From positions 64,001-128,000 of IMG/VR virus record IMGVR_UViG_3300030390_000715: 64,000 nt of DNA; one strand, written 5' to 3'. The notes under the pieces are model-generated. The model ran no database searches. It saw only the letters and a list, made by a program, of their open reading frames with translations, and was not told the origin of the DNA. Made by a program: the position numbers and the translations under genes. Of the stretch, positions 49,453-63,722 are shown piece by piece. Each line of letters starts with the position of its first letter. The first letter of the stretch is position 1. The stretch is from a virus.

Positions 49453-52400
49453 ATGGCAAACCAATATACTTCCGCTACGTTACCAGGTACTTACGCAGAC
49501 GATTTTGACCCAACAAACAATTATCATCAAATATTGTTTAATAGTGGTCGCGCATTGCAAGCCCGAGAACTTACTCAATTGCAGAGTATCATCTTTGCTG
49601 AAATGAGCAGGATGGGCGGCAATTTATACAAAGAAGGTGCGGCTATCTCAGGTGCTGGCACTAGTATCAATAGCGCATACGATTATGTCAAGATCGCTTC
49701 GACAAATGCAGGTGGCGAATTCTCTGCTATACCCGTCGGAACAATATTCTCTGATCCTATTACTAATATCAAAGCACAAGTCCTAGAAGTATCGCAAGCA
49801 AAAACAGGGCAGTTATTTGATACGTTGTTCATTGAATATATCAATAACGGAAGCGCAGTCTCAGGAAACACTCCTACTAGATTTGGTGATCAGGTCACAC
49901 TCTTCGATCAGTCAGGTGGTGGTTATGAATTAATCACAGAAACACCTAACGCTACTGGTAAAGGTGTTAAGTTTACTGTCGCAGAAGGCGAGTTCTTTGC
50001 TCTAGGTAGATTCGTTAATACTATTGAACAATCTATCATATTATCTCCTTACGAAAATTCTGCGATTGATACTGTCGTAGGATTTAGAGTCGTTCAAGAT
50101 ATTGTTACTGTCAATGACACTGAAGCATTATATGACAACACAAACGGTGTCGTTAATACAGCTTCTCCTGGTGCTGATCGCTATCGTATCAGCCTAGTTC
50201 TAACTACCGAAGATCAAGTTACTGACTCGCAAACATTCTTGTTCTTAGCGCGAGTTGAAAACTCAAAGATCAGCGAAGAAATACAAATTCAAGACTCGTT
50301 CAATAAAATTAATGATCTACTTTCTATACGCACTAAAGAAGAGTCAGGCGATTATGTAGTTAATCCTTTTACTGTTAACGTCGACGATTTTGATAACGGT
50401 CTTGATTCTAACCTCGATCTTATTGTATCAGAAGGCACAGCATATATCAATGGGTACAGAGTAGAAAATCAAAGTTCTGCTAAGTTTAAATTGCCGAGAC
50501 CCACTGCTACTGAATTAGTTAATAACGATACTATCGGTATTCAGTTAGGCAACTATTTCCTATGTAATGTCAACAAAGATATTCCTATTCTTGATTATAC
50601 AGAAGTGAATCTATACTCTGCTGTCACTGCGGGCGGTTCTGTAGTCGGTACAGCGAGAGTCCGAGGAATTCAACACTTCAGCGACACCGTACAAAAAGTA
50701 TTTGTCTATGATGTTACTATGCAACCCGGTCAATCTATTGCCCAGATAAGAAGTCTAGGTACGGCTTCTACTAATTATTTTGACATAGTTGTCGCCACAA
50801 ACGGTATTAAATTATACGAGACTGATAATAACGATCTATTATTTGCTACTAACAACGCACGACCTTCAGACTTTGATGATATTACAGTAACAGTTCAGAA
50901 GTACCAGACGAAAACTGCTGTTGGTAATGCGGTCACATTAGATCAATTACCTGTTGGTCAATCTTACACACAATCTTCTGAGTGGATATTAAGTACTGCT
51001 CAAACCAGTGGTGTGGAATTACCAAGTACTTATGTTGTTACTATAACTAACAGTGGTCGCGATGCTTCTGTAACGAGTCTCGCGCAAGCTACTGACGATT
51101 ATAAAATTATCGCGTTTGTGCAAAAGACTGCTACGATAAAGCCTAAGACTGCTACTACTTCGGGCACGACTTCATTCACCTCTTCTGTAGATGCGGTATC
51201 TGGTGTTACGTATTTTAATCTTGGTCTTCCTGATATCTACTCTGTCGATTCTGTCAGACAAAACAATAGTGCTGGTAATGATTTATCGTCTATCTTTACA
51301 ATAGATGATGGTCAACGCGACAATTATTACGGTGACGGTCGCCTAGTACTTAAAGACGGCTTCGCAGATCCAGGCACAATCTATGTAAACTTCAAGTCGT
51401 TCACTCGTGGTGCAGGCGATTTCTATGCGGTCAATTCATACAACGTACCATATAGTGATATTCCTAAGCACATAACGAATACTGGTGAAGAGATATCGTT
51501 GCATGATGTTATCGACTTTAGACCTGATCAAAATACTGCGGGCACAGTGTCGAATATACCTGCGCTTCCTCTCAACGGTTCTTTAATCACTGCTGACGTT
51601 AATTATTATTTGCCTCGTGCTGATAAAGTTATCATGACTCATGACGGTGAGATCAACATTCTAATGGGGCAACAAGCCCGCGATCCACAATTCAAAGAGA
51701 CACCTGATAACTCTATGGAATTGTATAAGATCATATTGAATGCAAACACCAAGGATGAAAATGATCTTGTTGTCGTGCCTACTGCTCAACAACGTGGCTA
51801 CACGATGAAAGATATCGGTGATCTAGAAAATAAGATCGATGCTATAGAAGAGTCTACTTCACTTAGTATTTTTGAATTAGAAGCGCGTCTTGATAACGTA
51901 CTTGACAGTGATGGCGTAATTCGTATCATTAGTGGTCTTCAAGTCAACGAAGCGACTGATCATACTGGCACCGACACGGGTTCACCTGATCATAGAGCTT
52001 CGATAGATCCTGAGAATCGTTTGATTAGACCATCATTCGAAGAAGGTAATACTAGACTAGTCTACGTACCAAACAATACTGCTGATGCTTTCACAACATC
52101 ACATTCAAGTACGGGTGTTGTCAAGAAGGGCGATAACATCTATCTTGCGCACGATTCCGCAGAATGGACATTCCAGAAACTCGCTTCACGTACTACAAAG
52201 ATTAATCCTTTTGGATTGATCGACAATGTTGGTACATTAAAACTTTCTCCTTCTACTGATGAATGGAAAGAGTCTATTCAAGATGCTGTTAAGGTTCTAG
52301 CTGGTACTAATAAGCTGTCCGCAAAACAAGCGCATTGCTGGAATAACTGGCAGTGGAATTGGGGTGGTCGAACTAACGGATCTAATTTCACGGCTAATGT

Positions 52401-54759
52401 TAGACGAGTAGTAGCCTCCGAAAGTCTACGTAGAGTGATTGGTGATAGAACAGTCGATCTTGCCCTTGTACCATGGATTCGATCACGAAAGATTTTCTTC
52501 AAGGCGCAAGGCTTAACTCCGAACACTAAGTTTACTCCATTCTTTGACGGTAAAGATGTCTCTGCATGGTGTCGAGAAGAAGTTGCATTCGTTCAGTGGT
52601 CAGATCGAGTAGATGATATTGGTAATAAGAATACATACTCAACAATGTCTGGTCACCCTGACGGAACTACTGATCTTATTGCTGATGCCAACGGTGAAGT
52701 CATTGGGTCATTCTTCATACCTAATATTACACCTAAGTATGCGCTACAACACACAAAATATCGTGGAAGATATAATAGATATTATCTACGATTTAGAGCC
52801 GGTGCAAGAGAATTTAAACTTCTTGATATCAACGTGAACGACTGGGCTAGTGCAAACAGTAAAGCATTTACGCATTATACTGCTAAGGGCTTGTTGCCAT
52901 GGGTATGGTGGAATCCTCTTACGCGCTCAAGAGGCAATAAATATCTTTATCCTTACAACTACACACGTAAACTTTACTCTGCTAAAGAATTGAAACGTGT
53001 ACTCGATAGAGTACCTGCGGCTTCTGTTAAGCTAATCGATCCTCAGTTATCTGGTTTATATGGACCTGATGGTGTTGCACTAGATGGTGCGGCTCTACAG
53101 ACATTAGCAAACAATACTCAAATGTCGAAAGTTTTGTCCGATTATATTAACATTAACTTTAATCAGTTTGCAGACATTTTACCTGCTACAGTCCAAGCGG
53201 CTACGATGAATCCATTAGCGCAGACTTTTCATGTTAGTAACGATGTTGGTGTTACATTGACTAAGATTGATTTATTCTTCAAGTCAAAGCCAACGACTAC
53301 TGGCTTACCTGTATCTGTTCATATTCGTCCGGTAGAGAATGGCAAGCCGTCAACTTCAGACATTATACCTGATTCACATGTATATGTTAATAGTGCTGAT
53401 GTTGTCGCAACATCTAATACGAATCAATTGGTTACTATTCAGGGTGCACCAACACCTTTCGTATTTGAAGAGCCACTTTACTTATCGCCTGGGCAAGACT
53501 ACGCTATTGTGGTCACTTCGCAATCTACAGAGTACGAGCTTTACACTGCAAAGACTCGCGAACCAGTAATCAATTCGAAGGCTAGATCGATCACAACACA
53601 GTCTGCGCCAGGAGCAATGTTCTTACCTCAGAATGGTGTTAACTGGACTGATTCGAAAGATCAAGACTTAATGTTCAAGCTAACACGCGCTAAGTTTGGT
53701 ACGAACGGTGGAGCTAACGGCAGTCTTGTATTGAAAAATGCTGATGTTCCTGCTAGACTATTGAGTGAGAACCCATTACAAACTACAATTAGTGATCATA
53801 AAATATATGTTCGTCACGCCAATCACGGTCTACAGCCAGGAGATGGTGCTAGACTAGATAGTTGTGCCGAAATAGGTGGATTCAGTTCTGCGCAGTTAAG
53901 CGGTAGTTTCGAAGTTATTGATGTCGATGCATACGGATATCGTTTCGAGATTGATCCAAGTAATAGAGTCACAGCGACTACTACTGAAGTTGGTGGTGGT
54001 GAGAAATGTCTTTCTTTAGGAAACACTAACTTTTCTGTCGCTAATCCTCATATCGAATCGATAATACCTAACACGACTTCGATTGATGTCTCTGCACAAT
54101 TTACTTCTGGTAAGTCTGTATCTGGTTCTGAAACACGATTCGTAAGAGATACGAAGTATACGAGAATCACGCCTAAGACAAACACTGATTTTGAGAAGGT
54201 CAATACGTTATATAACTCTTATTCTCAAGACTCAGATATTGGTGCGGGCATTGCCTCTGCTTACTTCAAGGTTGATATGAAATCAGCAAGCGATTTTGTT
54301 TCTCCTATCATTGATTTACAGCGTTCTTCGTTAATAACTGTTAACAACTTGATCGATGATCCGTCAGTTACACCGCATATCTATCCTGTCGCTGAAACAT
54401 CTGCAACGGGTAGTACTACAGTAGCGTCTCATATTAATAGCCCTGTAGTATTGCAAGAGACTGCTGTTGGTATTCAAATAAAGACTGACGCGTCCGTTCA
54501 CTCGGAATGCAACTTTAGATTAGCCTATCGTGTTTGTTCTTCTGATCAAGATATTCAGAACACACCGTGGGTAGTTCAAAATCCTACTGACGCTATCGTA
54601 AAGGATGGAAGTGTGCGCTCCGTTGAATTCTTAGTCGGTGATAAGAATGGCACAATACCTCCATTTAGTCAAGTTCAGACTAAGTTCATTCTAGAAAGTA
54701 AGAATAGTGGTAAGCCAGTAACCATAGGCAATAGTGTGGTCAAGTACTTAGCGGTATGA
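49453..54759 (+). CDS. Large virion structural protein, VrlC/DUF4815-like
   Basis: Y.DDFD..N.YH.ILF..GRALQARELTQLQS, PGADR, RT.EESGDY.V, DGQRDNYY, DFRP, YTMKDIG.LE, PLAQTF, SPIID. Confidence 0.85.
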   Translation: MANQYTSATLPGTYADDFDPTNNYHQILFNSGRALQARELTQLQSIIFAEMSRMGGNLYKEGAAISGAGTSINSAYDYVKIASTNAGGEFSAIPVGTIFSDPITNIKAQVLEVSQAKTGQLFDTLFIEYINNGSAVSGNTPTRFGDQVTLFDQSGGGYELITETPNATGKGVKFTVAEGEFFALGRFVNTIEQSIILSPYENSAIDTVVGFRVVQDIVTVNDTEALYDNTNGVVNTASPGADRYRISLVLTTEDQVTDSQTFLFLARVENSKISEEIQIQDSFNKINDLLSIRTKEESGDYVVNPFTVNVDDFDNGLDSNLDLIVSEGTAYINGYRVENQSSAKFKLPRPTATELVNNDTIGIQLGNYFLCNVNKDIPILDYTEVNLYSAVTAGGSVVGTARVRGIQHFSDTVQKVFVYDVTMQPGQSIAQIRSLGTASTNYFDIVVATNGIKLYETDNNDLLFATNNARPSDFDDITVTVQKYQTKTAVGNAVTLDQLPVGQSYTQSSEWILSTAQTSGVELPSTYVVTITNSGRDASVTSLAQATDDYKIIAFVQKTATIKPKTATTSGTTSFTSSVDAVSGVTYFNLGLPDIYSVDSVRQNNSAGNDLSSIFTIDDGQRDNYYGDGRLVLKDGFADPGTIYVNFKSFTRGAGDFYAVNSYNVPYSDIPKHITNTGEEISLHDVIDFRPDQNTAGTVSNIPALPLNGSLITADVNYYLPRADKVIMTHDGEINILMGQQARDPQFKETPDNSMELYKIILNANTKDENDLVVVPTAQQRGYTMKDIGDLENKIDAIEESTSLSIFELEARLDNVLDSDGVIRIISGLQVNEATDHTGTDTGSPDHRASIDPENRLIRPSFEEGNTRLVYVPNNTADAFTTSHSSTGVVKKGDNIYLAHDSAEWTFQKLASRTTKINPFGLIDNVGTLKLSPSTDEWKESIQDAVKVLAGTNKLSAKQAHCWNNWQWNWGGRTNGSNFTANVRRVVASESLRRVIGDRTVDLALVPWIRSRKIFFKAQGLTPNTKFTPFFDGKDVSAWCREEVAFVQWSDRVDDIGNKNTYSTMSGHPDGTTDLIADANGEVIGSFFIPNITPKYALQHTKYRGRYNRYYLRFRAGAREFKLLDINVNDWASANSKAFTHYTAKGLLPWVWWNPLTRSRGNKYLYPYNYTRKLYSAKELKRVLDRVPAASVKLIDPQLSGLYGPDGVALDGAALQTLANNTQMSKVLSDYININFNQFADILPATVQAATMNPLAQTFHVSNDVGVTLTKIDLFFKSKPTTTGLPVSVHIRPVENGKPSTSDIIPDSHVYVNSADVVATSNTNQLVTIQGAPTPFVFEEPLYLSPGQDYAIVVTSQSTEYELYTAKTREPVINSKARSITTQSAPGAMFLPQNGVNWTDSKDQDLMFKLTRAKFGTNGGANGSLVLKNADVPARLLSENPLQTTISDHKIYVRHANHGLQPGDGARLDSCAEIGGFSSAQLSGSFEVIDVDAYGYRFEIDPSNRVTATTTEVGGGEKCLSLGNTNFSVANPHIESIIPNTTSIDVSAQFTSGKSVSGSETRFVRDTKYTRITPKTNTDFEKVNTLYNSYSQDSDIGAGIASAYFKVDMKSASDFVSPIIDLQRSSLITVNNLIDDPSVTPHIYPVAETSATGSTTVASHINSPVVLQETAVGIQIKTDASVHSECNFRLAYRVCSSDQDIQNTPWVVQNPTDAIVKDGSVRSVEFLVGDKNGTIPPFSQVQTKFILESKNSGKPVTIGNSVVKYLAV

Positions 54760-55030: not shown

Positions 55031-58000
55031 ATGTCTCTACCCTTAAAACATCTTGGCAATGGCGCGCTTCAAGAATTAGCTTCCGTTGATCTTGATTCCA
55101 TTGCTTATAGGGCGGGTGTTCATCTAGGTAAAATGGGCGCAGAAGATGCTTCGGCTCTAACTACAACCTCTACTGCTAACACTCTAGTCGGTTCAATCGA
55201 TGATACGTTTTACGAAACCACTATAGGTTCTACTCCAGGAACAACATGGACAGTTAATCTAGCTGTCGATCATATATCGGACACAACTACCGGTGTTCAT
55301 ACTGCGACATTCACACAATTAAACGAATTTCCCTCTCCTATCTTTGTTGGCGATACTGTAAGAGTTATTGTTACAGGTGATGCTCAGACAGGTTTTGAAG
55401 AGATCGCTCACGAATTGTCCGAGTCTGGTACAGCACTCTTCAGTACAGAAAGTGTAACAACAACACCGTCCGCGTCTATCATCGAAGATACTCGCGTCGA
55501 ATGGGAAGATTTTGTTTATGGTCTGACAGGCACATTTATCTCACAGTTTGAGGTTAAGGTGACTCAACCTGGAGTAATAAACTTTTCGTTGAATGTGAGT
55601 ACCACTGACTTAAACAACACAACTAATAATACCGCTAACGCGTCTATATCGTTTGCGACTGTCGATGTTGAAGAAACATTACCGCCAGAAGCGACTAGCG
55701 TTCAATATGACTTATATCAATCCAATGCTGGTATTGTTACGCAAAGCGTACACAAAAAGAACCCTGTTTTCTGGACCAGATATCTAACGCCAAATGGTAT
55801 CAAAGAAATGTCTGATGCAGAACTTGATTCGTTCTGCGAAAAATTAGTCATACGAATTATGGCAAACGAATTGCCAGGCACATACAGATTAAATGCTAAC
55901 AGCCCAGGCTCTGATTGGGTTCAATTTGTTAGCAACGTATTTACAGATACACGCGCAGACGGATCGACTACTGACTACTCGATATGGCTAAGACAGTCAG
56001 GTACTGCGCCTACTCAAGTTAATCTTGTATATCCGAAGCGCGTCTTGGGTGAATACGCAGGATTAAATGAGTATACAGACAATCAAGTCGAATTTACTTT
56101 TGGCGAAAGAGTTAAGAAAGCCATTGCCACTACCGGTATTGGTAAATATGTACTAAGATCATCTACTCAAGGTGCGCCTACTGAAACAGGAACGTGGGTT
56201 GCTCGTGGTAGTGCGATTGATACTAGACTAGAATATTATTATGACCCAGGTTATGTTTCAACACCTGCATATTCAAGTCAATATGTAGAAGATTATGCAA
56301 CCGACTATGTTGACACGTATGAAGGTAATTATGAGCCTACATATACTGGCGATTTCACTGCTGACTTTGAAGGTACATACGAAGCGGAATATCTAGGCAA
56401 CTATACGCCAGATTATGACACAGGATATGATGCCGAATACACTCAAAACTTTGAAGCTGATTATCAAAGCCAGTATGAGCAAGAATATCTTGGGGACTAC
56501 GTTAGCCAATATGTACCCACATACGACGGTGCTATTTTTAACGAACAGTACAGTACGGATTATCTAGCCGCTGATTTTATAGGCGACTACATTAGCGATT
56601 ATACAGCCGACGCATACGATTCAGGATATACTTCGGACTATCAAATTGATTACATTGGTTCATACACTGGTCAATACACTAGTAACTATGACAGCGTATA
56701 TGAAGATATCAATTACGCTACAGATTACAGCGTAGATTATACAGGGCAATATGAGTCTGTATATGCGACCACGTATGAGAATGACTACACTAGTAATTAT
56801 AGTTCCCAGTACACTTCTCAATATTCGGATGAATACGAGTCTGTATATGAAGATATAGAATACTTGACCGATTACATCTCGGTCTATAATAGCGACTATA
56901 CTACTGACTATCTAAGCGATTATGATAATACAGCATATAGTACGATTTTCGAAACTACCTACGCCACAAATTATTCTACTGGCTTTGAATCTACCTTTAT
57001 AGGCACGTATGATGACACTGACTATGCGGCTACCTTTTCTGGCGATTATGTCTCTAATTATGATAACTCATTCGTAAGTCCGGAGTATCAGAGTGTTTAC
57101 GAGGGTAGCCCATACTCTGTAGACTTTGTTGGAGATTACACATCCACTTATGATTCTTCGTTCGTACAGGATTTTGTAGGCACGTATGATGACACTGACT
57201 ATGTGACTAACTTCGTCGGTGATTATGCTAGTCAATATATCAGTCAGTTTAGCCAAGACTTTGCTGTCGATTATAATACAGACGATTACGTGGTAGACTT
57301 TGTTGGTGATTATACGTCATCTTACGATGCTTCGTTCGCACAGGACTTCGTTGGAAATTATAGTGACACTGACTATGCGACTACCTTCGTCGGTGATTAT
57401 GCTAGTCAATATATCAATCAGTTTAGTCAGAACTTTGCGGCAGTGTTTGATGGTTCTCAATATACTACTGTTTTTGAATCGAACTATGTGGGTGATTATG
57501 CAGGATCATTCGAAGGCAACTTCAACAACATATTCGAAGGTGCAAGTTATGTTTCTACCTTTGCCAACTCTTATGCTAGTCAATATACGTCACAGTTCAG
57601 TCAAGCATTCTCGGCTAACTATGATAACACAACATACACTGGTGACTTTAATGAGACTTATTCTGGCGATTACATTGGTCTGTATAGCGCGTCTTTCGCA
57701 GGCAATTATGAGCGAACTACATATGAAACGCAATTTAGCGCGTCATACACCGGCAACTATGTGGGTCTTTTCTCACAGACTTTCTTAGGAACATATGACA
57801 GTCAAGGATACACTGCTGACTTTACAGCAAACTATACTGGCGACTACAGCGGTACGTTCGGAACTACGTTTCTTGGAAATTATGATAGTCAACAATTTAA
57901 CGCTATCTTCGAGAGTACTTACACTGGTGATTATGACGGACAATTTAGTGCTACGTTTATCGGTGAATACGATAGAGTAAACTACAACACAAACTTCGTA

Positions 58001-61000
58001 GGCGATTACGTCGGTGATTATAGCGGAGCATTTAGTGCTACGTTTGTAGGCAATTACGAAAGATTGACGTACCAAGGCGAGTATGTTTCTACGTACACTG
58101 GTGATTATACCGGAACATTTAATGCCAACTTTAACGCTACTTACGATGGAGCTAATTACGCCTCTCAATATACTGGCGGTTATACTGGCGCTCCGTCTGA
58201 AACCTTTAGTGCTAACTTTATAGGCGAATACCAGCGAATTGATTACACTAGCCAATATACTGGTCAATACGTATCACAGATAAGCGAATCGTTCGGTGCT
58301 TCATATACGGGTGTCTACGAAAGAACCAATTACACTTCTGTTTACACTGGTGGTTATACTGGACAAGTAAACGAAAACGAGGATAGCACTAACGAAGAGT
58401 CGTTCGCTCGTGACACTTACGTCTCACAATACACTGGCGGATACACTGGTGGTTATGCAGGGCTATACGAACGCGCAGTGAATGAATCGTTTTCAGGTGC
58501 CTCATTCACTGGTGATTATACAGGGCAGTATGTTGGTCAAGTTGGCGAAACCATAATTGATAATATCGATGAATCGTTCAATGTGAACTATACAGGCGAA
58601 TATACAGGTCAGTATGTTGGTCAAGTTGGCGAAACCATAGGCGATGCTATCAACGAATCATTCAATGTAAATTACACTGGTGATTATACAGGGCAGTATG
58701 TTGGTCAAGTTGGTGAAACCGAGCAACAAACATTTACAGCAACTTTTAACTCTGCTAATAACTACAATACGCAATATACAGGGCAGTATATTGGTCAAGT
58801 AACCGAGAATGAAAGTACAACGGAACAACAATCTTATACAGGCGCATATACAGGCGATTACACAGGTCAGTATGTTGGTCAAGTAAGTGAGACAGAACAA
58901 ACAGCTATCAACGAAGGTTTTGTTACCACATATATTGGAACATATACTGGTGGTTATGAACGCGCACAAACAGAAAATGAAGACCAAACACAATCGACCA
59001 CATACACGGGCGGTTATGTACGCGCACAAAACACTACTAATCAAGATACGGTGACTGATGCCGTAGGGGAAGTTTTCAATGGAAACTTCCAAGGAAACTA
59101 CGTTAGTACCTCTACAACTTTTTACAATGGACCAAATGCTCATACAACAAGTACGATGGTTGCTGACGAATATGCTGATCTAAATGATTACAACCTTTCG
59201 GGTACAGCCGGTTATTCCTCTGTTTCTTCTACCCTTGGTGGTAGTTTCAGCCCAACTTCACTTAATCTTGGCATGGGATCTGTAAGGGCTCTATTTCACA
59301 ACTGGACTACGATTTTTACTTCTGGTGTTGGTGTTAAAACATCGCAAGGTTTAACGCTTCAACTCAACGCTGGTAGTAATCCCACAAACTGGCAATCGAT
59401 GCACCTTGTAGCACCCGGTGGCGCGGTTACGATTGTCAATAGAACGTCTATGTCTTATACGCTGTCAGGTGGAATTGCGACTTTCTCTATATCTTCCTCG
59501 GTTGCCCCCGGACCCGTCTTCTTTGGTCAAAATGAATCTTGGACTGTTAAGTTTATTAATCCCTTTGGCAACACAGCGGGATATGCCGGTGGAGGTGGCA
59601 GTTCAACTTTCATAGGAGATTACGTAAGTTCATACATAGGCTCTTATTTAGGCGCATACACGGGCTCATACACAGGGCAATATACAGGAACAGTGAACGA
59701 GAATTTCACGGGTGATTATGTCGGGCAGTATTCGGGTCAATATGTTGGTGTTGTTCAAGAGGGCATAGATGAAGGCTTTGCGTCTACATACACTGGTCAA
59801 TACACTGGTGGCTATACAGGTTTATACGAACGAGCGCAGAACCAGTCGTTTGCTACGGTTCAATCATCGACATATACCGGTGGCTATACAGGGCAATATA
59901 CAGGCTTATACGAACGAGCGCAGAATGAAAACTTCGCGGTCAACTATAACAGTTCATACATAGGCAACTACACTGGTGGTTATGCAGGGCTATATGAACG
60001 AGCGCAGAGTGAAACTTTCGCGGCTGTTTATGCTGGAACGTACACAGGTCAATACACTGGTGGCTATTCAGGATTATATGAACGAGCGCAGAGTGAAACT
60101 TTCGCGGCTGTCTATGCCGGCACATACACTGGACAATACTCTGGTGGTTATGCAGGGCTATATGAACGCGCAGTGAATGAAACTTTCAGTGTTGCTTACG
60201 CGGCTGATTATATTGGTCAGTATGTTGGTCAAATAGCTGAAGTAGAACAGACTACAGAACAAGAAACATTCTCCGCGTCTTATATTGGAAATTACATTGG
60301 TGGTTATACTGGTCAGTACTTAGGGCAATATGAGCGTACACAACAACAAAACTTTTCCGCTAACTACTTAGCCTCGTTTGAAGGTGCATTTAACGCAACA
60401 TATGTGGGGCTATACGAACGCGCTATTGATGAAACATTTAGTGCTAACTACCTCGGAACATTCGCGGGCGATTATGTCTCACAATATACTGGAGCATACG
60501 AATCTGTAGATAGCGAAACATTTACGGCTAACTTCACTGGCTCTTATAATAGCACATATTTGTCATCGTATGACGGTACCTTTGTTGCTAACTTTAATCA
60601 AACATTCATTGACCAATACACCGGAACATTCCTTGGTGATTATCTTTCGCAGTATACAGGCGGATTCTCAGAGTCCTTCGCCGGAGACTACGCTTCTGAT
60701 TATCTCGGAACATTCGCGGGCGATTATCTTTCGCAGTACACGGGCGTCTTTACACAAAACTTTGTAGGCACATACACTTCGGGCTATACAAGAACATTCG
60801 ACGGCGACTACGTTTCACAATACGAAGGTAACTTCTCGGCTGTATACACAGGAAACTTTACTGCACAATACACCGGAACATTCGACGGCAACTACGTTTC
60901 ACAATATGAAGGTAACTTCTCGGCTAATTTTGGAGCGCAGTTTAGCGCACAGTATCTTGGAACATTCATAGGTGATTATGCTTCGAGCTACGAAGGTGCG

Positions 61001-62473
61001 TTTGGTGTCTCATATTCTGGAAACTTTACTGAAGACTACGTTGACACGTATACATCCCAGTATACATCCCAGTATACATCTGATTTTGAAGCCATTTACG
61101 TCGGTGATTTTGAAGGAGCTTATCAAGCTTCCTTTGAAGGTAACTTTGCGGCTCAATACGAAGGATCTTTTGCGCAGACCTTCACAGGATCATACGATAC
61201 ACAGTACACTGGATCTTACATATCACAGTATTTGTCGACATACGAATCAGCTTTCACAGCTATATTCGGTAGTGATTACACGTCCGAGTATCTAGGAACA
61301 TTCGACGGTAACTATGTCTCAGCCTATGCCAATGTGTTCAGCCAGACATTCTCGGGCAATTATGTTTCTAGTTATCTCGGAACATTCACTGGTCAATATA
61401 CGGGTGAGTACGAGTCAGACTATACAAGCTCATTCGCAGGAGATTATGCATCCGAGTATCTTGGAACATTCGACGGTAACTATGTCTCAGCCTATGCCAA
61501 TGTGTTCAGCCAGACATTCTCGGGCAATTATGTAACTGATTATATTGATTCTTATCAGTCTGCTTATATTACTACCTATGACAGTACATTCACATCTAAC
61601 TTTAGTGGTGAATACACGTCCGAGTATCTCGGAACATTCGATGGTGATTATACTTCGGAATATGCTAGTATATACCTGAACGAATATGTCGGTACTTACA
61701 CATCTGAATACACTGACACTTACACTGGCAACTTCTTAGATACATACGAAGGAACTTTCGCTGATGCGTATGAAACTGGTTATACTGGCACATATGCTTC
61801 CGAGTATCAAACCAATTACGGATCGGAGTTTATAAGTGAATATGCTAGTGATTATACCACTGATTACAATACCGATTATGCTACGCAATTCGAAGGCACG
61901 TTCATTGGTCAATATGAGAATGAGTACCTAGGCACTTACGAAAGCACCTTCATAGAGAATTACGAGTCGACTGAATCATACATTGCATATGGTACTTCCT
62001 ATGCGTCCGAATATGTCTCTGACTACAATCCTACATACGAAGGTGATTTCTTAGGAAGCTATGAGCCTAGCTACGAGACAACTTACAATTCAGAATATAC
62101 AGGCACATATGACGCTGACGCTGTGGATGAAAGTTACGATTCATTGTATGTTCGTGATCTTTATTCTTCTGATTATACGACTGATTATATCGAACAAGTT
62201 TACGTGTCTGGTTATGTGACTAGCTACGAAGGTCTTGATAGCGAAGAGTCATACGATACGACATATGATGGCGCTGTTTACACCTCGAGCTATGCCTCTG
62301 ACTATCAAGATGATGACATTATCGAGAGTTACGATGACACGGCTTACACCGCACTCTATAATACCGATTACTCGATTGACTATATAACTGATACAGCATA
62401 CGGTACTGGAGGACACTTACGAGACATTCCTGTATCGATTGAAACTTATACATTATACGTGAGGGTAGCATGA
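55031..62473 (+). CDS. Giant acidic Tyr/Phe tetrad-repeat protein, putative virion fibre
   Basis: 2480 aa; ~400-aa N-terminal domain, two ~950-aa arms of [YF]-x-[GS]-x repeats flanking a ~160-aa non-repetitive domain; late promoter. Confidence 0.8.
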   Translation: MSLPLKHLGNGALQELASVDLDSIAYRAGVHLGKMGAEDASALTTTSTANTLVGSIDDTFYETTIGSTPGTTWTVNLAVDHISDTTTGVHTATFTQLNEFPSPIFVGDTVRVIVTGDAQTGFEEIAHELSESGTALFSTESVTTTPSASIIEDTRVEWEDFVYGLTGTFISQFEVKVTQPGVINFSLNVSTTDLNNTTNNTANASISFATVDVEETLPPEATSVQYDLYQSNAGIVTQSVHKKNPVFWTRYLTPNGIKEMSDAELDSFCEKLVIRIMANELPGTYRLNANSPGSDWVQFVSNVFTDTRADGSTTDYSIWLRQSGTAPTQVNLVYPKRVLGEYAGLNEYTDNQVEFTFGERVKKAIATTGIGKYVLRSSTQGAPTETGTWVARGSAIDTRLEYYYDPGYVSTPAYSSQYVEDYATDYVDTYEGNYEPTYTGDFTADFEGTYEAEYLGNYTPDYDTGYDAEYTQNFEADYQSQYEQEYLGDYVSQYVPTYDGAIFNEQYSTDYLAADFIGDYISDYTADAYDSGYTSDYQIDYIGSYTGQYTSNYDSVYEDINYATDYSVDYTGQYESVYATTYENDYTSNYSSQYTSQYSDEYESVYEDIEYLTDYISVYNSDYTTDYLSDYDNTAYSTIFETTYATNYSTGFESTFIGTYDDTDYAATFSGDYVSNYDNSFVSPEYQSVYEGSPYSVDFVGDYTSTYDSSFVQDFVGTYDDTDYVTNFVGDYASQYISQFSQDFAVDYNTDDYVVDFVGDYTSSYDASFAQDFVGNYSDTDYATTFVGDYASQYINQFSQNFAAVFDGSQYTTVFESNYVGDYAGSFEGNFNNIFEGASYVSTFANSYASQYTSQFSQAFSANYDNTTYTGDFNETYSGDYIGLYSASFAGNYERTTYETQFSASYTGNYVGLFSQTFLGTYDSQGYTADFTANYTGDYSGTFGTTFLGNYDSQQFNAIFESTYTGDYDGQFSATFIGEYDRVNYNTNFVGDYVGDYSGAFSATFVGNYERLTYQGEYVSTYTGDYTGTFNANFNATYDGANYASQYTGGYTGAPSETFSANFIGEYQRIDYTSQYTGQYVSQISESFGASYTGVYERTNYTSVYTGGYTGQVNENEDSTNEESFARDTYVSQYTGGYTGGYAGLYERAVNESFSGASFTGDYTGQYVGQVGETIIDNIDESFNVNYTGEYTGQYVGQVGETIGDAINESFNVNYTGDYTGQYVGQVGETEQQTFTATFNSANNYNTQYTGQYIGQVTENESTTEQQSYTGAYTGDYTGQYVGQVSETEQTAINEGFVTTYIGTYTGGYERAQTENEDQTQSTTYTGGYVRAQNTTNQDTVTDAVGEVFNGNFQGNYVSTSTTFYNGPNAHTTSTMVADEYADLNDYNLSGTAGYSSVSSTLGGSFSPTSLNLGMGSVRALFHNWTTIFTSGVGVKTSQGLTLQLNAGSNPTNWQSMHLVAPGGAVTIVNRTSMSYTLSGGIATFSISSSVAPGPVFFGQNESWTVKFINPFGNTAGYAGGGGSSTFIGDYVSSYIGSYLGAYTGSYTGQYTGTVNENFTGDYVGQYSGQYVGVVQEGIDEGFASTYTGQYTGGYTGLYERAQNQSFATVQSSTYTGGYTGQYTGLYERAQNENFAVNYNSSYIGNYTGGYAGLYERAQSETFAAVYAGTYTGQYTGGYSGLYERAQSETFAAVYAGTYTGQYSGGYAGLYERAVNETFSVAYAADYIGQYVGQIAEVEQTTEQETFSASYIGNYIGGYTGQYLGQYERTQQQNFSANYLASFEGAFNATYVGLYERAIDETFSANYLGTFAGDYVSQYTGAYESVDSETFTANFTGSYNSTYLSSYDGTFVANFNQTFIDQYTGTFLGDYLSQYTGGFSESFAGDYASDYLGTFAGDYLSQYTGVFTQNFVGTYTSGYTRTFDGDYVSQYEGNFSAVYTGNFTAQYTGTFDGNYVSQYEGNFSANFGAQFSAQYLGTFIGDYASSYEGAFGVSYSGNFTEDYVDTYTSQYTSQYTSDFEAIYVGDFEGAYQASFEGNFAAQYEGSFAQTFTGSYDTQYTGSYISQYLSTYESAFTAIFGSDYTSEYLGTFDGNYVSAYANVFSQTFSGNYVSSYLGTFTGQYTGEYESDYTSSFAGDYASEYLGTFDGNYVSAYANVFSQTFSGNYVTDYIDSYQSAYITTYDSTFTSNFSGEYTSEYLGTFDGDYTSEYASIYLNEYVGTYTSEYTDTYTGNFLDTYEGTFADAYETGYTGTYASEYQTNYGSEFISEYASDYTTDYNTDYATQFEGTFIGQYENEYLGTYESTFIENYESTESYIAYGTSYASEYVSDYNPTYEGDFLGSYEPSYETTYNSEYTGTYDADAVDESYDSLYVRDLYSSDYTTDYIEQVYVSGYVTSYEGLDSEESYDTTYDGAVYTSSYASDYQDDDIIESYDDTAYTALYNTDYSIDYITDTAYGTGGHLRDIPVSIETYTLYVRVA
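56230..62400 (+). repeat. 12-nt-period coding repeats with 84-, 168- and 174-bp higher-order duplications
   Basis: Near-identical units at 58526/58610/58694, 59991/60075, 57119/57293 and 61283/61451/61619. Confidence 0.85.
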
Positions 62474-62919
62474 GTTTACAAGTAGAATATTTAGATAACG
62501 CATACTGGGAAAATAAAGATAAGACCCAGCTAAAATGCATTCGATTGAAGCCCGTTGAAGGCGGAAAGGGTGGTCGCAAGAAAGATGTCTTATTATTAAA
62601 TAAAGGTGATCCAGAATATGACATTGTAGTGTCTAGGTGGGGTGTTCCTCATATCGATAAAAACACTCAAGAACGCGCTGACTCTAAGGATAAAAAAGAT
62701 CGAGAGAATCGCGCAGTCCACGAACAGCGCAAAAAATCTGCTGAGTTAGAGCAACTATTCAATGCTAAACTTCAGACGAGTGAAATACCTGAAATCAAAA
62801 ATTCTACAAACAAAGCTATGAGATCGAAGATAAGACGCGCAAAGAGTGTGATCGAAATGCAAGCCCTAGCCGCTCTGCTGATTGGAATGGAATTAGGCTA
62901 CATTGAGGTTAAAAAATGA
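62470..62919 (+). CDS. Hypothetical basic protein coupled to the fibre gene (possible chaperone)
   Basis: ATGA overlap; LF..KL...EIPEIK.S.N...RS.IR.AKS motif. Confidence 0.65.
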   Translation: MSLQVEYLDNAYWENKDKTQLKCIRLKPVEGGKGGRKKDVLLLNKGDPEYDIVVSRWGVPHIDKNTQERADSKDKKDRENRAVHEQRKKSAELEQLFNAKLQTSEIPEIKNSTNKAMRSKIRRAKSVIEMQALAALLIGMELGYIEVKK

Positions 62920-63722
62920 GAGATGTGATTGACACAGTAAAAAAATGGCTACGCATTACTCCACCTACGACCCCACCTACGATTGGATATGTTATTGTTG
63001 CATCTCGAAAGAAGTTCTTTTATGTTTCTGCAATTAATCTTATGGAATCAATCAAAGATCATTATCCCGAAGCTAAGATCACTCTAGTCGTTGAAGAAAG
63101 ATTCCTTGATGGTAACGAGAAGATAGCGGATAACATTATTTTCTGCGATGATCATGCACGAGCTAAGTTGATAGGAATGGCTAAATCACCTTATGATATT
63201 ACGTTTTATGTCGATGCAGATATAGAATGCGAACACGAAGATATCTCTACAATCTTTGATAAACTCGATGGACATGATATCATGTTCACTGGTCTACCTG
63301 CTGATAGACATTACTGTTACGCAGAAGTATTCTTTGACGGTGCAACAAAGGCTGACGGTACTAAAGCAGGGTTCGAACTTTGCGGAGGTGTCTGTCTTTA
63401 TGATATGAGAAAGCCACTTGTTCGTGAATTCATGAACGATTGGTATAATCTAACTGTAGCTCAGTATGCTAGACTCTGGTGGCCAAGGAACGAAGATGGC
63501 ACTGAAGACCTCAAAAATTATCCTGCTACACTAAAAAGATGGGACCAATTCTCACTTTGGTGGTTAACTAACAAAGAGCCAAAATACAAAGACCTCAAAG
63601 TAGGTATATTAGAAGATGATGCTCGATGGAATTACTACTCTAAGTATAAGTACGACCATAATAAAGAGCCTGTAGTATTGAGACACTACTCCTCTTCAGG
63701 CGCTAAATCTCTGGAGTTTTAA
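62916..63722 (+). CDS. GT-A glycosyltransferase (GT8-like)
   Basis: RAKL...SPYD.T.YVDAD, CGGV..Y, WDQF, RWN, HY. Confidence 0.75.
   Translation: MRDVIDTVKKWLRITPPTTPPTIGYVIVASRKKFFYVSAINLMESIKDHYPEAKITLVVEERFLDGNEKIADNIIFCDDHARAKLIGMAKSPYDITFYVDADIECEHEDISTIFDKLDGHDIMFTGLPADRHYCYAEVFFDGATKADGTKAGFELCGGVCLYDMRKPLVREFMNDWYNLTVAQYARLWWPRNEDGTEDLKNYPATLKRWDQFSLWWLTNKEPKYKDLKVGILEDDARWNYYSKYKYDHNKEPVVLRHYSSSGAKSLEF

What the first reader, a model, noticed from the sequence alone, without database searches (positions are those of the whole stretch)
55031..62473. Giant mirror-symmetric repeat protein: candidate single-chain fold-back (hairpin) fibre with complementary arms
Seen: two ~950-aa arms of [YF]xxx tetrads flank a ~160-aa globular domain (~59120-59600). 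Composition mirrors outward from that domain: E/Q-rich, then F/G-rich, then D/Y-rich. Reading outward, the left arm has units R,R,Q,Q,Q,Q,Q,R,Q (R = Y[EV]R[AT]x, Q = G[QTV][VI]x) and the right arm has Q,Q,R,R,R,R,R,Q,R, an exact complement. Duplications are matched too: 84-bp units at 58526-58700 versus 59990-60170, and a 174-bp duplication (57119/57293) versus a 168-bp one (61283/61451), each pair about equidistant from the centre. The final residues (TYTLYVR) resemble strands in the N-terminal domain (QYDLYQ, DYSIWLR). Inference: the chain runs out and back as an antiparallel zipper, with both termini at the virion and the central domain as a distal receptor-binding tip. Length could approach ~300 nm if extended, and length changes would need paired duplications in both arms. 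This differs from the N-to-C trimeric fibres of T4.
Basis: partly seen in the sequence, partly recalled or inferred. Interest (0 to 1): 0.92.

Follow-up and report, generated by a model that had tools for sequence, protein, structure and literature searches.

The report
Giant fold-back phage fibre protein
A 2480-residue protein of an uncultured marine T4-like phage seems to leave a small base domain, run out to a tip and return, with two equal, rung-matched arms of four-residue tyrosine repeats; this fibre design has no solved structure.

Summary
ORF 55031-62473 (+) encodes 2480 aa: base domain (1-400), arm 1 (401-1355), orphan central domain (1356-1519), arm 2 (1520-2459) and a C-terminal strand ending ETYTLYVRVA.

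The fold-back reading is largely borne out by comparison, not by any structure.
- The C-terminal 21 residues are predicted to dock into the N-domain (ipSAE 0.86, best control 0.00).
- Both arms hold the same number of tetrad rungs (232/232 or 233/233, by counting rule).
- Rung-by-rung complementarity peaks at offset 0: no rung lacks an aromatic, and Gly faces charged residues.
- Close relatives differ by mirrored, often equal-sized indels, such as 288,48,116 | 116,48,288. The 95%-identical orthologue lacks 166 aa in arm 1 and 189 aa in arm 2.

The family is large and unnamed: 288 clusters, 185 IMG/VR stretches, one GenBank phage. It lies just downstream of a DUF4815 baseplate-region giant.

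Against: a low-confidence single-sequence AlphaFold2 model makes arm 2 a beta-solenoid, and the orthologue's arms differ by 8 rungs.

Still open: ribbon geometry, oligomeric state, virion location and receptor binding. This scan noted the same family earlier on other DNA.

The parts
55031..62473 (+). Whole gene, 2480 aa plus stop (protein P0001)
55031..56230 (+). Base domain, residues 1-400. It holds pseudo-repeat units; residues ~60-225 are an insert seen only in the nearest relatives. Units 2 (252-325) and 3 (341-399) are homologous.
   Evidence: most family hits cover only residues ~222-401; hhalign unit 2 vs unit 3: Prob 95%, E 3.8e-8; column frequencies; model of a short homologue; beta-prism-like matches, Z 5.2-7.3
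56231..59095 (+). Arm 1, residues 401-1355: [YF]xxx tetrads, 232-233 rungs, including 12 consecutive 29-aa units (seven aromatics at spacing 4, then one spacing of 5) at residues 695-1042
56531..57028 (+). Arm 1 segment (residues 501-666, 166 aa) absent from the 95%-identical orthologue in L003
59096..59587 (+). Central non-repeat domain, residues 1356-1519; putative distal tip; no relative found
   Evidence: not folded (pLDDT 23-30)
59588..62407 (+). Arm 2, residues 1520-2459: tetrads, 232-233 rungs, including 121 aromatics at unbroken spacing 4 (residues 1831-2311)
61499..62065 (+). Arm 2 segment (residues 2157-2345, 189 aa) absent from the L003 orthologue; mirror partner of the arm 1 segment
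62408..62470 (+). C-terminal closing strand, residues 2460-2480 (...ETYTLYVRVA), predicted to insert between strands 369-379 and 387-406 of the base domain
   Evidence: family conservation
49453..54759 (+). Upstream 1768-aa DUF4815 protein of the baseplate region. Context only: it accompanies the fibre gene in 60 of 80 related loci.
62470..63722 (+). Two downstream genes that travel with the fibre gene: a 149-aa basic protein (62470-62919) and a 268-aa glycosyltransferase-like protein (62916-63722). Their function was not tested.
   Evidence: each in 69 of 80 loci; one weak HpnI glycosyltransferase hit, E 0.0023, far below its cut-off

Best explanation
P0001 is a fold-back fibre protein of an uncultured marine T4-like phage.

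Proposed path of the chain:
- Residues 1-400 form a compact base domain.
- The chain leaves the domain's last hairpin after the invariant G-x-A-x-D-T-R motif (residue 399).
- It runs outward as arm 1, about 233 four-residue rungs.
- It forms a 164-aa variable tip domain.
- It returns as arm 2, also about 233 rungs, paired antiparallel with arm 1 rung for rung.
- Its last 21 residues (ETYTLYVRVA) insert as the missing strand of the base domain.

The rung register is written in the sequence:
- Every rung carries at least one aromatic.
- Phe tends to face Tyr.
- On the aromatic face, Gly in one arm faces a charged residue in the other.
- The extra residue every 29 aa of arm 1 would act as a bulge that keeps the tyrosines on one face.

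Because the arms must stay matched, the family changes length by mirrored, compensating indels. Globular knobs, in contrast, come and go singly.

By gene position, immediately after the DUF4815 giant of the baseplate region, it is most likely a host-recognition fibre anchored by the base domain, with the mid-chain domain as its distal tip.

Supported by computation or comparison: closure of the chain, equal rung counts, rung complementarity, and paired indels in relatives.

Inferred only: extended two-stranded geometry (about 233 x 4 x 0.33 nm, roughly 300 nm), oligomeric state, virion location and receptor binding.
For: CLOSURE OF THE CHAIN
- Complex prediction, residues 1-440 against 2420-2480: ipSAE 0.86, 0.88, 0.86, with a best control of 0.00 over 3 controls.
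- The tool's calibration: this mark was reached by 58 of 80 solved complexes and by 2 of 110 mismatched pairs. These counts hold only roughly here because my own alignment was used.
- The runs agree in at least 41% of their contacts, and the partner's pLDDT is at least 39.
- The interface joins residues 2460-2480 to 369-379 and 387-406.
- No solved relative exists that could explain the pass from memory.
- AlphaFold2 of the 420-aa homologue P0079 with 34 aligned sequences gives the base domain pLDDT >90. It shows long strands 256-285 and 387-418, and the C-terminal end scores 91-97.
- Units 2 and 3 of the base domain are homologous (hhalign Prob 95%, E 3.8e-8). Unit 2 ends DTR + short loop + DYSIWLR. 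Unit 3 ends DTR + about 2070 aa + TYTLYVR.

FAMILY-WIDE CONSERVATION
- 103 of the 153 proteins in hand have both the N-domain motif and the C-terminal motif.
- The centre of P0001 has no relative.

ARM COUPLING IN P0001 ITSELF
- 232 rungs in each arm by one count and 233 in each by another, although the aromatic spans measure 951 and 930 aa.
- Mutual information between rung words is highest at offset 0: rank 1 of 49 offsets, z 3.1.
- At offset 0: blank-blank rungs 0 of 233 (none lower among 61 offsets); Gly-charged pairs 52 of 233 against a mean of 11.7% (rank 1 of 61); F-F 9 (second lowest); F-Y 102 (third highest).

NATURAL EXPERIMENTS IN RELATIVES
- L003 orthologue, 95.2% identical: just two large indels, 166 aa in arm 1 and 189 aa in arm 2, at 103 and 126 aa from the two base anchors.
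- L015 vs L027: 288, 48, 116 | 116, 48, 288, at 89/102, 477/486 and 585/592 aa from the anchors.
- L025 vs L050: 124 | 124. L020 vs L072: 84 | 84, and 26+50 against 76. L020 vs L025: 12|12, 28|28, 16|16.
- A Pro/Gly-rich turn sits at the exact midpoint of the body in L015 and in L027, although the two differ by 871 aa.
- Residue-level mutual information singles out one register, K-(a+b) between -8 and -4, in 11 of 22 proteins scanned (z 2.7-5.7). It coincides with the register of the docked base strands.

FAMILY STATISTICS
- Arm lengths correlate: Spearman 0.57, Pearson 0.78, in the 92 of 103 proteins where a centre could be defined.
- Mirror correlation is positive in 79 of 102 proteins.

CONTEXT
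- T4-type gp6 and gp8 baseplate genes and the DUF4815 giant lie just upstream.
- In passages of PMC7029224, pelagimyophage and cyanomyophage tail fibres are said to lie downstream of the VrlC gene in most genomes.
Against: - No structure prediction shows arm-arm pairing beyond the first ~20 residues.
- In the P0079 model, the middle (residues 280-393) has pLDDT 29-40.
- The single-sequence AlphaFold2 model of P0001 residues 1151-1730 has mean pLDDT 43 and leaves the central domain unfolded. It builds arm 2 (residues 1550-1730, pLDDT 51-85 by 10-residue block) as two strands per 28-aa unit.
- That part matches beta-helix proteins (4dn7_B: Z 14.6, rmsd 3.5, 205 aligned). This is a local solenoid, not a long zipper.
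- The strict 28/29-aa super-period of P0001 fits a solenoid coil.
- The L003 orthologue has 193 vs 185 rungs, and its offset 0 is not favoured (rank 25 of 49). Offset -8 comes second, so exact matching is not obligatory.
- The residue-level register of P0001 is not resolved.
- In 10 of the 22 proteins scanned, the mutual-information peak is not near the base register, and in L052 it lies at +6.
- A composition-only search for the fold point was noisy: median |offset| 0.088 against 0.125 for a uniform null. It missed L015 and L027.
- Unit 1 of the base domain is not significantly related to units 2 and 3 (Prob 6-7%).
- The docking test used two separate chains, so it cannot tell closure within one chain from a swap between chains.
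- Family members are related, so counts over them are not independent.
- No data bear on expression, virion presence or host.
Confidence: 0.65

Rival explanations
1. Fold-back topology, but each arm is a beta-solenoid of about 28-29 aa per coil. The two roughly 34-coil solenoids lie side by side or stack as layers, giving a short rod of about 16-35 nm rather than a 300 nm ribbon.
For: - The AlphaFold2 single-sequence model gives arm 2 residues 1550-1730 a pLDDT of 51-85 (10-residue blocks), with strands of 6-15 aa and two strands per 28-aa unit.
- VIA-align matches that part to beta-helices: 4dn7_B Z 14.6, 9h78_B 14.4, 1vh4_A 13.4, and tailspikes and pectate lyases at Z 8-10.
- Arm 1 has twelve exact 29-aa units, and arm 2 has 28-aa DNA and protein units.
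- Equal coil counts would also explain equal rung counts.
Against: - The model is a single-sequence prediction with mean pLDDT 43, so the partner arm may simply have been missed.
- Relatives show paired indels of 12, 14 and 16 aa, about half of P0001's 28-aa unit. Such indels would barely change a solenoid's length, yet they are matched exactly.
- One residue-level register stands out in 11 of 22 relatives scanned.
- Arm 2 has 121 unbroken tetrads with no coil-level signature, and relatives have unbroken runs of up to 27 aromatics with no common super-period.
- In the shortest members (arms of 27-53 aa by the measure), a solenoid would have only one or two coils.
- The arms carry 268 Asp+Glu against 19 Lys+Arg. 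Stacking these in register should be unfavourable; that is my inference.
Confidence: 0.2
2. The arms pair between chains rather than within one. Two or more chains lie antiparallel, and each C-terminal strand docks into the base domain of another chain, giving a rod with base domains at both ends.
For: - Mirror symmetry, equal arms, paired indels and rung complementarity are all equally expected for antiparallel pairing between chains.
- The docking test used separate chains and cannot tell within-chain from between-chain docking.
Against: - The monomer model of the short homologue closes on itself with high confidence at the base.
- A short Pro/Gly-rich turn sits at the exact midpoint in L015 and L027, which suits a chain reversal.
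- A variable domain placed mid-rod with anchors at both ends is an odd design for a host-recognition fibre; that is my inference.
Confidence: 0.1
3. It is an ordinary linear N-to-C fibre. The arms are independent repeats, the mirror pattern is a by-product of repeat evolution, and the conserved C-terminus serves a chaperone or trimerisation role.
For: - This is the default design of solved tail fibres.
- The arms are made of tandem duplications.
- A 149-aa protein of unknown role is conserved just downstream.
Against: - DNA duplication or inversion cannot produce protein-level mirror order.
- The paired inserts differ in sequence type but are equal in length.
- Rung counts are equal and complementarity peaks at offset 0.
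- The C-terminus is predicted to dock in the N-domain.
- The most variable part is the middle, not the C-terminus.
Confidence: 0.04

Closest known systems
Distal tip of the phage T4 long tail fibre, gp37 domains D10 (collar) and D11 (needle)
   Same: - An elongated domain is an insertion into a small base domain, so the chain runs out to the tip and back and its C-terminus completes the base. D10 is residues 811-881 plus 1010-1026. The D11 stem is 882-931 plus 960-1009 (PMC6957217, introduction passage).
- The receptor-contacting part lies mid-sequence, at the far end.
   Different: - The gp37 stem uses about 50 residues per direction, against about 950 here.
- It is stabilised by iron bound to His residues of a trimer (same paper). 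P0001 has no HxH and only one His in its arms.
- Its collar shares a fold with gp10, gp11 and gp12. The base domain here gave only beta-prism-like matches.
- There is no sequence similarity to any PDB chain.
- The oligomeric state here is unknown.
MABP / perforin-2 P2-type beta-prism domains (3tow_A, 6sb1_A; C-terminal domains of 2qp2_A and 8b6v_A)
   Same: These are the best structural matches of the modelled base domain of homologue P0079. 8b6v_A: Z 7.3, rmsd 3.6, 121 aligned. 2qp2_A: Z 6.7, rmsd 3.8, 118 aligned. 3tow_A: Z 5.9, rmsd 3.6, 114 aligned. 6sb1_A: Z 5.2, rmsd 5.6, 120 aligned. The aligned range runs to the last residue, so the C-terminal strand is part of the domain. The fold is internally repeated, which fits the unit 2/unit 3 homology.
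   Different: The Z values are in the range the tool calls common for unrelated models. Sequence identity is 6-10%. Only two of the three supposed units are demonstrably homologous. None of these domains carries a hairpin of hundreds of residues.
Beta-solenoid / beta-helix proteins (SufD-type helices, pectate-lyase-like tailspikes, curli CsgA)
   Same: The single-sequence model of arm 2 matches them (Z 14.6 down to 8). Both have a short repeat with a regular super-period.
   Different: The model is of low overall confidence. The paired small indels and single register in relatives argue for pairing between the arms rather than between successive coils. There is no sequence relationship (2-14% identity).
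Hypothetical protein WJE88074.1 of Phage C48C1 (GenBank OQ984149.1, Kyanoviridae), 3347 aa
   Same: A true homologue. It has the same N-domain and the same last ten residues, ETYTLYVRVA, and the same downstream genes.
   Different: Its tetrads are Arg-rich, and several globular domains are inserted along the body. It is annotated only as hypothetical. A search for the phage name found no paper on it.
Tyr-Gly 'aromatic rescue' / mortise-tenon motif of beta-barrels
   Same: An aromatic side chain lies over a neighbouring-strand glycine. Figure legends in bioRxiv 10.1101/2020.10.22.346965 name the motif. The Y-x-G-x tetrad places Tyr and Gly alternately on one face of each strand.
   Different: At the rung register found here, aromatics mostly face aromatics, and Gly faces charged residues. 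The analogy is therefore only a lead. The original description (Merkel and Regan) is recalled, not read.

Membership tests
Unnamed 'ETYTLYVR' fold-back fibre family (no Pfam, PHROG or NCBIfam model) | N-terminal base domain ending G-x-W...G-x-A-x-D-T-[RK] | tested here: met
   phmmer with residues 1-410 found 288 cluster representatives at E<=1e-3 and 222 at E<=1e-10. Invariant G387, W389, G393, A395 and T398 in the 76-row alignment.
Unnamed 'ETYTLYVR' fold-back fibre family (no Pfam, PHROG or NCBIfam model) | Chain ends with ...E-T-Y-T-L-Y-V-R-x-A | tested here: met
   P0001 ends ETYTLYVRVA. 103 of the 153 proteins in hand carry both end motifs. 185 of 201 IMG/VR stretches with the motif encode relatives.
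Unnamed 'ETYTLYVR' fold-back fibre family (no Pfam, PHROG or NCBIfam model) | Two tetrad-repeat arms of matched length around a variable centre | tested here: met
   232/232 (or 233/233) rungs. Family arm lengths: Spearman 0.57 over 92 proteins.
T4 gp37 needle (D10 collar + D11) | Elongated part is an out-and-back insertion into a base domain | tested here: met
   By prediction only.
T4 gp37 needle (D10 collar + D11) | His-x-His metal-binding repeats along the stem | tested here: not met
   No HxH in P0001. It has 10 His in all, of which one (H2462) lies in the stretch counted as arms, next to the closing strand.
T4 gp37 needle (D10 collar + D11) | Collar fold shared with gp10, gp11 and gp12 | tested here: inconclusive
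   Foldseek found no match at E<=0.001. The VIA-align wide search listed beta-prism-like domains only. A family that is not listed is not excluded.
T4 gp37 needle (D10 collar + D11) | Homotrimer | not tested
MABP-type beta-prism | Three-fold pseudo-symmetric prism of beta-sheets | tested here: inconclusive
   Z 5.2-7.3. Units 2 and 3 are homologous. Unit 1 is not significantly related.
Parallel beta-helix / beta-solenoid | Successive ~28-aa coils stacked in register within one arm | tested here: inconclusive
   For. Against.
Known Pfam or PHROG tail-fibre families | Significant profile match | tested here: not met
   No Pfam family at E<=0.01 and no PHROG at E<=0.001 for P0001. No PHROG for six short members. 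No NCBIfam match for the N-domain or P0079.

The most novel reading that the evidence does not exclude
A protein that behaves like an RNA stem. One 2480-residue chain would form a two-stranded beta-ribbon about 0.3 micrometre long, with a base domain at one end and a variable knob at the other. Its register would be set by a rung-by-rung side-chain code: at least one aromatic per rung, Phe opposite Tyr, and Gly opposite a charged residue. It would evolve by compensatory indels in the two arms. That would make it a fibre of programmable length and a new architectural class beside the parallel trimeric fibres.
Probability: 0.4. Interest if true: 0.95.

Novelty: new variant of a known kind. Interest (0 to 1): 0.85.

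Why it matters
If the reading holds, this large marine phage protein family builds host-recognition fibres on a new principle.
- The receptor-binding tip lies in the middle of the gene.
- Both ends of the chain are locked in one base domain.
- Length is set by two arms that must change together.

Consequences:
- Host-range determinants in these abundant uncultured T4-like phages should be sought mid-gene, not at the C-terminus.
- Compensatory indels in a protein would be a rare, clean parallel to compensatory change in RNA stems. They give a sequence-only way to read a protein's register.
- A single-chain beta-ribbon whose length can be tuned in 4-residue steps would interest protein designers.

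The principle itself has a small precedent in the T4 gp37 needle, which is why I file it as a new variant. The scale, the base fold and the repeat code have no described counterpart in the searches I ran.

Tried and rejected
DATABASE SEARCHES THAT GAVE NOTHING
- Megablast of the gene against 50,697 GenBank phage records: no match.
- tblastn of P0001 matched 2 records. One is C48C1. The other is Enterococcus phage Riverwalk: 7% of the query, E 2e-4, no annotated feature under the match. I took it for a compositional match and did not follow it up.
- tblastn of the short member P0020 matched C48C1 only.
- Pfam, PHROGs and NCBIfam gave nothing for the fibre protein.
- PDB sequence search: one hit at E 0.46, disregarded.
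- Foldseek of the P0079 model against the PDB: nothing at E<=0.001.
- Central domain: no relative among the 152 other proteins (best E 3.0), none among shorter proteins of the 5.8-billion-sequence set, and ESM Atlas scores of only 0.80-0.81.
- A word-index search with residues 220-410 found only one protein, P0153.

ANALYSES THAT WERE WEAK OR UNINFORMATIVE
- Composition-only search for the fold point in 147 proteins. 20% fell within 0.02 of the midpoint (null 8%) and 41% within 0.05 (null 20%). It missed clear cases (L015, L027), so it carries no weight.
- Aromatic-opposite-aromatic scan. It fixes the register only modulo 4, because the lattices are so regular.
- Residue-level mutual-information scan of P0001 and of its zones. 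No register stood out near the base value. The inner zone peaked at -62, which I cannot interpret.
- In six relatives (L010, L012, L021, L036, L079, L081) the mutual-information peak lay at +59 to +79. This may reflect a lateral insert, but I did not follow it up.
- Unit 1 against units 2 and 3 of the base domain: Prob 6-7%. The 'thrice-repeated' base is therefore only two-thirds supported by sequence.

LITERATURE
- Searches found no description of this family. 'C48C1' gave 9 unrelated papers. 'DUF4815' gave 3 papers, none on this protein by their titles and abstract openings. 'tail fiber / tyrosine-rich / repeat / metagenom' gave 883 papers holding at least 3 of the 4 terms; I saw the 10 listed, and none of them contains 'tyrosine-rich'.
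- I did not open any supplementary files, so virion proteomics tables that might list such proteins were not seen.
No call tested it.

REJECTED IDEA
- The mirror order cannot come from DNA inversion. The arms are on one strand, and the paired inserts differ in sequence.


Full report
WHAT IS THERE

The window is bases 64001-128000 of a 152,753-base IMG/VR virus record estimated to be 91% complete. Positions 55031-62473 (+) are one open frame of 2480 aa. The ORFs listed inside it on other frames are short, and I treat them as chance.

Aromatic residues (Y/F) follow each other at a spacing of exactly 4 residues 359 times. The layout is:
- a non-repeat N-domain, residues 1-400;
- arm 1, residues 401-1355;
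- a non-repeat centre, residues 1356-1519;
- arm 2, residues 1520-2465;
- a C-terminal end reading ...IETYTLYVRVA.

The arms contain no Lys, Cys, Met or Trp. They carry 268 Asp+Glu against 19 Arg and have no HxH motif.

CHECK OF THE OBSERVATION

Composition is mirrored about the centre. In 56-aa windows, mirror r=0.25 against forward r=-0.15. Only 1 of 5000 permutations reached the observed value, and it ranked first of 16 circular shifts. For 67 windows of 28 aa, the distance from the centre of the best match in the other arm follows the window's own distance (Spearman 0.67).

The R/Q unit strings are exact complements for nine units, and their markers sit at nearly the same distances (27-245 aa against 34-248 aa). 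The tenth pair is R/R. Label shuffling gives a full complement 1.2% of the time.

The 84-nt, 174-nt and 168-nt duplications exist at or near the stated coordinates. Matched pairs lie at equal distances from the centre.

THE FAMILY AND ITS SETTING

A full HMMER scan with residues 1-410 found 288 cluster representatives at E<=1e-3 and 222 at E<=1e-10. Their lengths run from about 200 to 2503 aa.
- Of the 153 proteins then in hand, 103 have both the N-domain end motif and, within the last 45 residues, the C-terminal motif.
- In the 76-row alignment, E2471 to R2478 are at least 90% conserved.
- A scan of IMG/VR for the C-terminal heptad found 201 stretches, of which 185 encode relatives. The best 80 loci were kept.
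- Among 50,697 GenBank phage records, only Phage C48C1 (Kyanoviridae) has a homologue. It is a 3347-aa 'hypothetical protein' with the same last ten residues and the same downstream genes.
- No Pfam, PHROG or NCBIfam model and no PDB sequence matches.

The gene follows T4-type gp6-like and gp8-like baseplate genes and a 1768-aa DUF4815 protein. That protein is present in 60 of the 80 related loci. The downstream 149-aa and 268-aa genes are each present in 69 of 80.

Passages of PMC7029224 describe a 'host recognition cluster' in pelagimyophages and cyanomyophages.

THE CHAIN RETURNS TO ITS START

Four lines of evidence agree.
1. Family profiles of base-domain unit 2 (residues 252-325) and unit 3 (341-399) are homologous (hhalign Prob 95%, E 3.8e-8, 37 columns). 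Unit 2 ends F-T-D-T-R, a short loop, then D-Y-S-I-W-L-R. Unit 3 ends A-I-D-T-R, and the matching Y-T-L-Y-V-R strand comes about 2070 residues later, at the very end of the protein.
2. AlphaFold2 of the 420-aa member P0079 with 34 aligned sequences gives a mean pLDDT of 75.8. The base domain is above 90. The model has two long strands, 256-285 and 387-418, and the C-terminal 20 residues score 91-97. The repeat part between them (280-393) is at 29-40.
3. For P0001 itself, a complex prediction of residues 1-440 against 2420-2480 scored ipSAE 0.86, 0.88 and 0.86, against 0.00 for all three controls.
   - The tool's calibration: this mark was reached by 58 of 80 solved complexes and by 2 of 110 mismatched pairs. 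These counts are only rough here because my own alignment was used.
   - The runs agree in at least 41% of contacts, and the partner's pLDDT is at least 39.
   - Residues 2460-2480 lie against 369-379 and 387-406. Y2473-R2478 sits between the strands around residues 370-376 and 388-395.
   - No solved relative exists, so a pass from memory is unlikely.
4. The best structural matches of the P0079 model are beta-prism-like domains: 8b6v_A Z 7.3, 2qp2_A 6.7, 3tow_A 5.9 and 6sb1_A 5.2. Their aligned ranges include the last residue. These Z values are middling and show no kinship.

THE TWO ARMS ARE COUPLED

Across the family:
- In the 92 of 103 complete proteins where my crude rule found a centre, the arm lengths correlate (Spearman 0.57, Pearson 0.78). 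Many are nearly equal, for example 333/340, 358/353 and 264/246.
- The mirror correlation is positive in 79 of 102 proteins. It exceeds 0.5 in 23 and is below -0.5 in 2.
- These proteins are related to one another, so the counts are not independent.

Natural experiments among close relatives are more telling.
- The orthologue in L003 is 95.2% identical over 2123 aligned columns. It differs from P0001 by just two large indels. One removes residues 501-666 of arm 1 (166 aa, starting 103 aa from the base). The other removes residues 2157-2345 of arm 2 (189 aa, ending 126 aa from the C-terminal anchor).
- L015 (1948 aa) against L027 (1077 aa), 77% identical: the extra segments of L015 measure 288, 48, 116 | 116, 48, 288 aa. 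They lie 89/102, 477/486 and 585/592 aa from the two anchors.
- L025 against L050: 124 | 124, at 123/117 aa from the anchors.
- L020 against L072: 84 | 84, at 299/315 aa, and 26+50 against 76.
- L020 against L025: 12|12, 28|28 and 16|16.
- The paired inserts differ in sequence type but not in length, so they are not copies of each other.
- L015 and L027 have no globular centre. They have a Pro/Gly-rich turn at residues 1033-1043 and 596-608, where the body midpoints are 1039.5 and 604.
- Unpaired indels were globular pieces: a 118-aa knob in L060 against L071, and a 78-aa central piece in L048 against L078.
- L028 against L043 has 14+14 aa on either side of what looks like a local turn near residue 900. 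Placing the fold point there is my reading. It balances the arms at about 660 aa each once a 230-aa globular insert is set aside.

Register:
- In 11 of 22 proteins scanned, mutual information between residue i and residue K-i peaks at one register, K-(a+b) between -8 and -4 (z 2.7-5.7).
- That is the register implied by the docked base strands, for example 390 with 2476.

In P0001 itself:
- A constant residue register cannot hold. Arm 1 has an extra residue in most units, including twelve consecutive 29-aa units at residues 695-1042. Arm 2 runs through 121 aromatics at unbroken spacing 4.
- Counted in tetrad rungs, the arms are equal: 232 and 232 by one routine and 233 and 233 by another. The aromatic spans measure 951 and 930 aa.
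- Mutual information between the rung words of the two arms, counted from the base, is highest at offset 0 (rank 1 of 49, z 3.1).
- At offset 0 no rung lacks an aromatic (0 of 233, although 29 and 20 rungs are blank in the single arms). Gly at the position two after the aromatic faces Asp, Glu, Arg or Lys in 52 of 233 rungs, against a mean of 11.7% (rank 1 of 61). F-F pairs are rare (9, second lowest), and F-Y pairs are frequent (102, third highest).
Units with three blank rungs face units with one.

WHAT SPEAKS AGAINST, AND WHAT STAYS OPEN

- No model shows the arms paired along their length.
- The single-sequence AlphaFold2 model of residues 1151-1730 has a mean pLDDT of 43 and leaves the centre unfolded. 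It makes arm 2 (pLDDT 51-85 by 10-residue block) a stack of two strands per 28 aa. That part matches beta-helices (Z 14.6, 14.4, 13.4). I weigh it low because the model is of low overall confidence and was made without an alignment. The matched 12-16 aa indels and the single register in relatives are also hard to reconcile with independent solenoids.
- The L003 orthologue has 193 against 185 rungs, and its offset 0 is not favoured. Offset -8 comes second. That fits an unpaired loop of about 8 rungs and shows that exact balance is not obligatory.
- The composition-only fold-point search was noisy.
- In 10 of 22 proteins the mutual-information peak lies away from the base register, and in one more it lies at +6.
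- Unit 1 of the base is not demonstrably homologous to units 2 and 3.
- The docking test cannot separate closure within one chain from a swap between chains.
- Whether the ribbon is straight or supercoiled, monomeric or bundled, is unknown. The one-sided extra residue every 29 aa hints at regular bulges.
- A length of about 300 nm (233 rungs x 4 residues x 0.33 nm) is arithmetic, not a measurement.

FUNCTION

I infer from the following that this is a host-recognition fibre anchored by the base domain, with the mid-chain domain at the distal end:
- its position directly after the baseplate genes;
- the conserved ends;
- the orphan, exchangeable centre;
- globular knobs that come and go in relatives.

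Nothing here tests expression, virion presence or binding.

COMPARISON WITH WHAT IS KNOWN

The closest principle is the T4 gp37 tip. Its needle D11 is an insertion into collar domain D10, with the stem made of residues 882-931 and 960-1009 (PMC6957217, passages). The present protein works like that in topology but is not a member:
- it has no HxH metal sites;
- no collar-fold match was listed (inconclusive);
- its scale is about 20 times larger;
- its oligomeric state is untested.

This scan has met the same family on other DNA. Earlier notes proposed the base-loop insertion, a pairing rule with Arg opposite Gly, and a beta-prism base. I used them as leads and tested them here.

VERDICT

The fold-back with matched, complementary arms is well supported by comparative and predictive evidence. 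The extended-zipper geometry and the function remain to be shown.

Noticed in passing
window 62470-63722 and related loci L003-L082: A 149-aa basic protein and a 268-aa glycosyltransferase-like protein follow the fibre gene. Each recurs in 69 of 80 related loci (the 149-aa gene lies within 3 kb downstream on the same strand in 48 of 73 loci with enough flank). They also recur in Phage C48C1 (34% and 58% identity). They may be an assembly or modification module for the fibre.
   Followed up: partly
window 56231-59095 and 59588-62428 (arms, residues 401-1355 and 1520-2466): The 1902 arm residues contain no Lys, Cys, Met or Trp. They carry 268 Asp+Glu against 19 Arg, so the arms are extremely acidic. 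C48C1-like relatives instead have Arg-rich arms.
   Followed up: no
L003:8001-14372: The 95%-identical orthologue has 193 rungs in arm 1 and 185 in arm 2. Its second-best rung offset is -8, as if about 32 aa of arm 1 loop out unpaired near the deletion site.
   Followed up: partly
relatives P0005, P0006, P0007, P0002, L060 (residues 581-698): To my eye, a small globular 'knob' of about 90-120 aa recurs at the centre or along one arm in several relatives. In L060 it reads roughly Y-W-x-I ... I-x-W-N-G. It is present in L060 and absent from the 94%-identical L071.
   Followed up: no
relatives P0004, P0005, P0017: In a few members the YTLYVR strand is not the end of the protein. P0004 and P0005 continue for about 27 aa, and P0017 for about 270 aa of non-repeat sequence.
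   Followed up: no
relatives L010, L012, L021, L036, L079, L081: In this subgroup, mutual information between the arms peaks at a register shifted by +59 to +79 residues from the base register. A lateral insert of about 60-80 aa in one arm might explain it.
   Followed up: no
window 55208-55705 (residues ~60-225): The first hairpin of the base domain carries an insert of about 165 aa. It is found only in the nearest relatives (P0003-P0016); most family members match only residues ~222-401.
   Followed up: no
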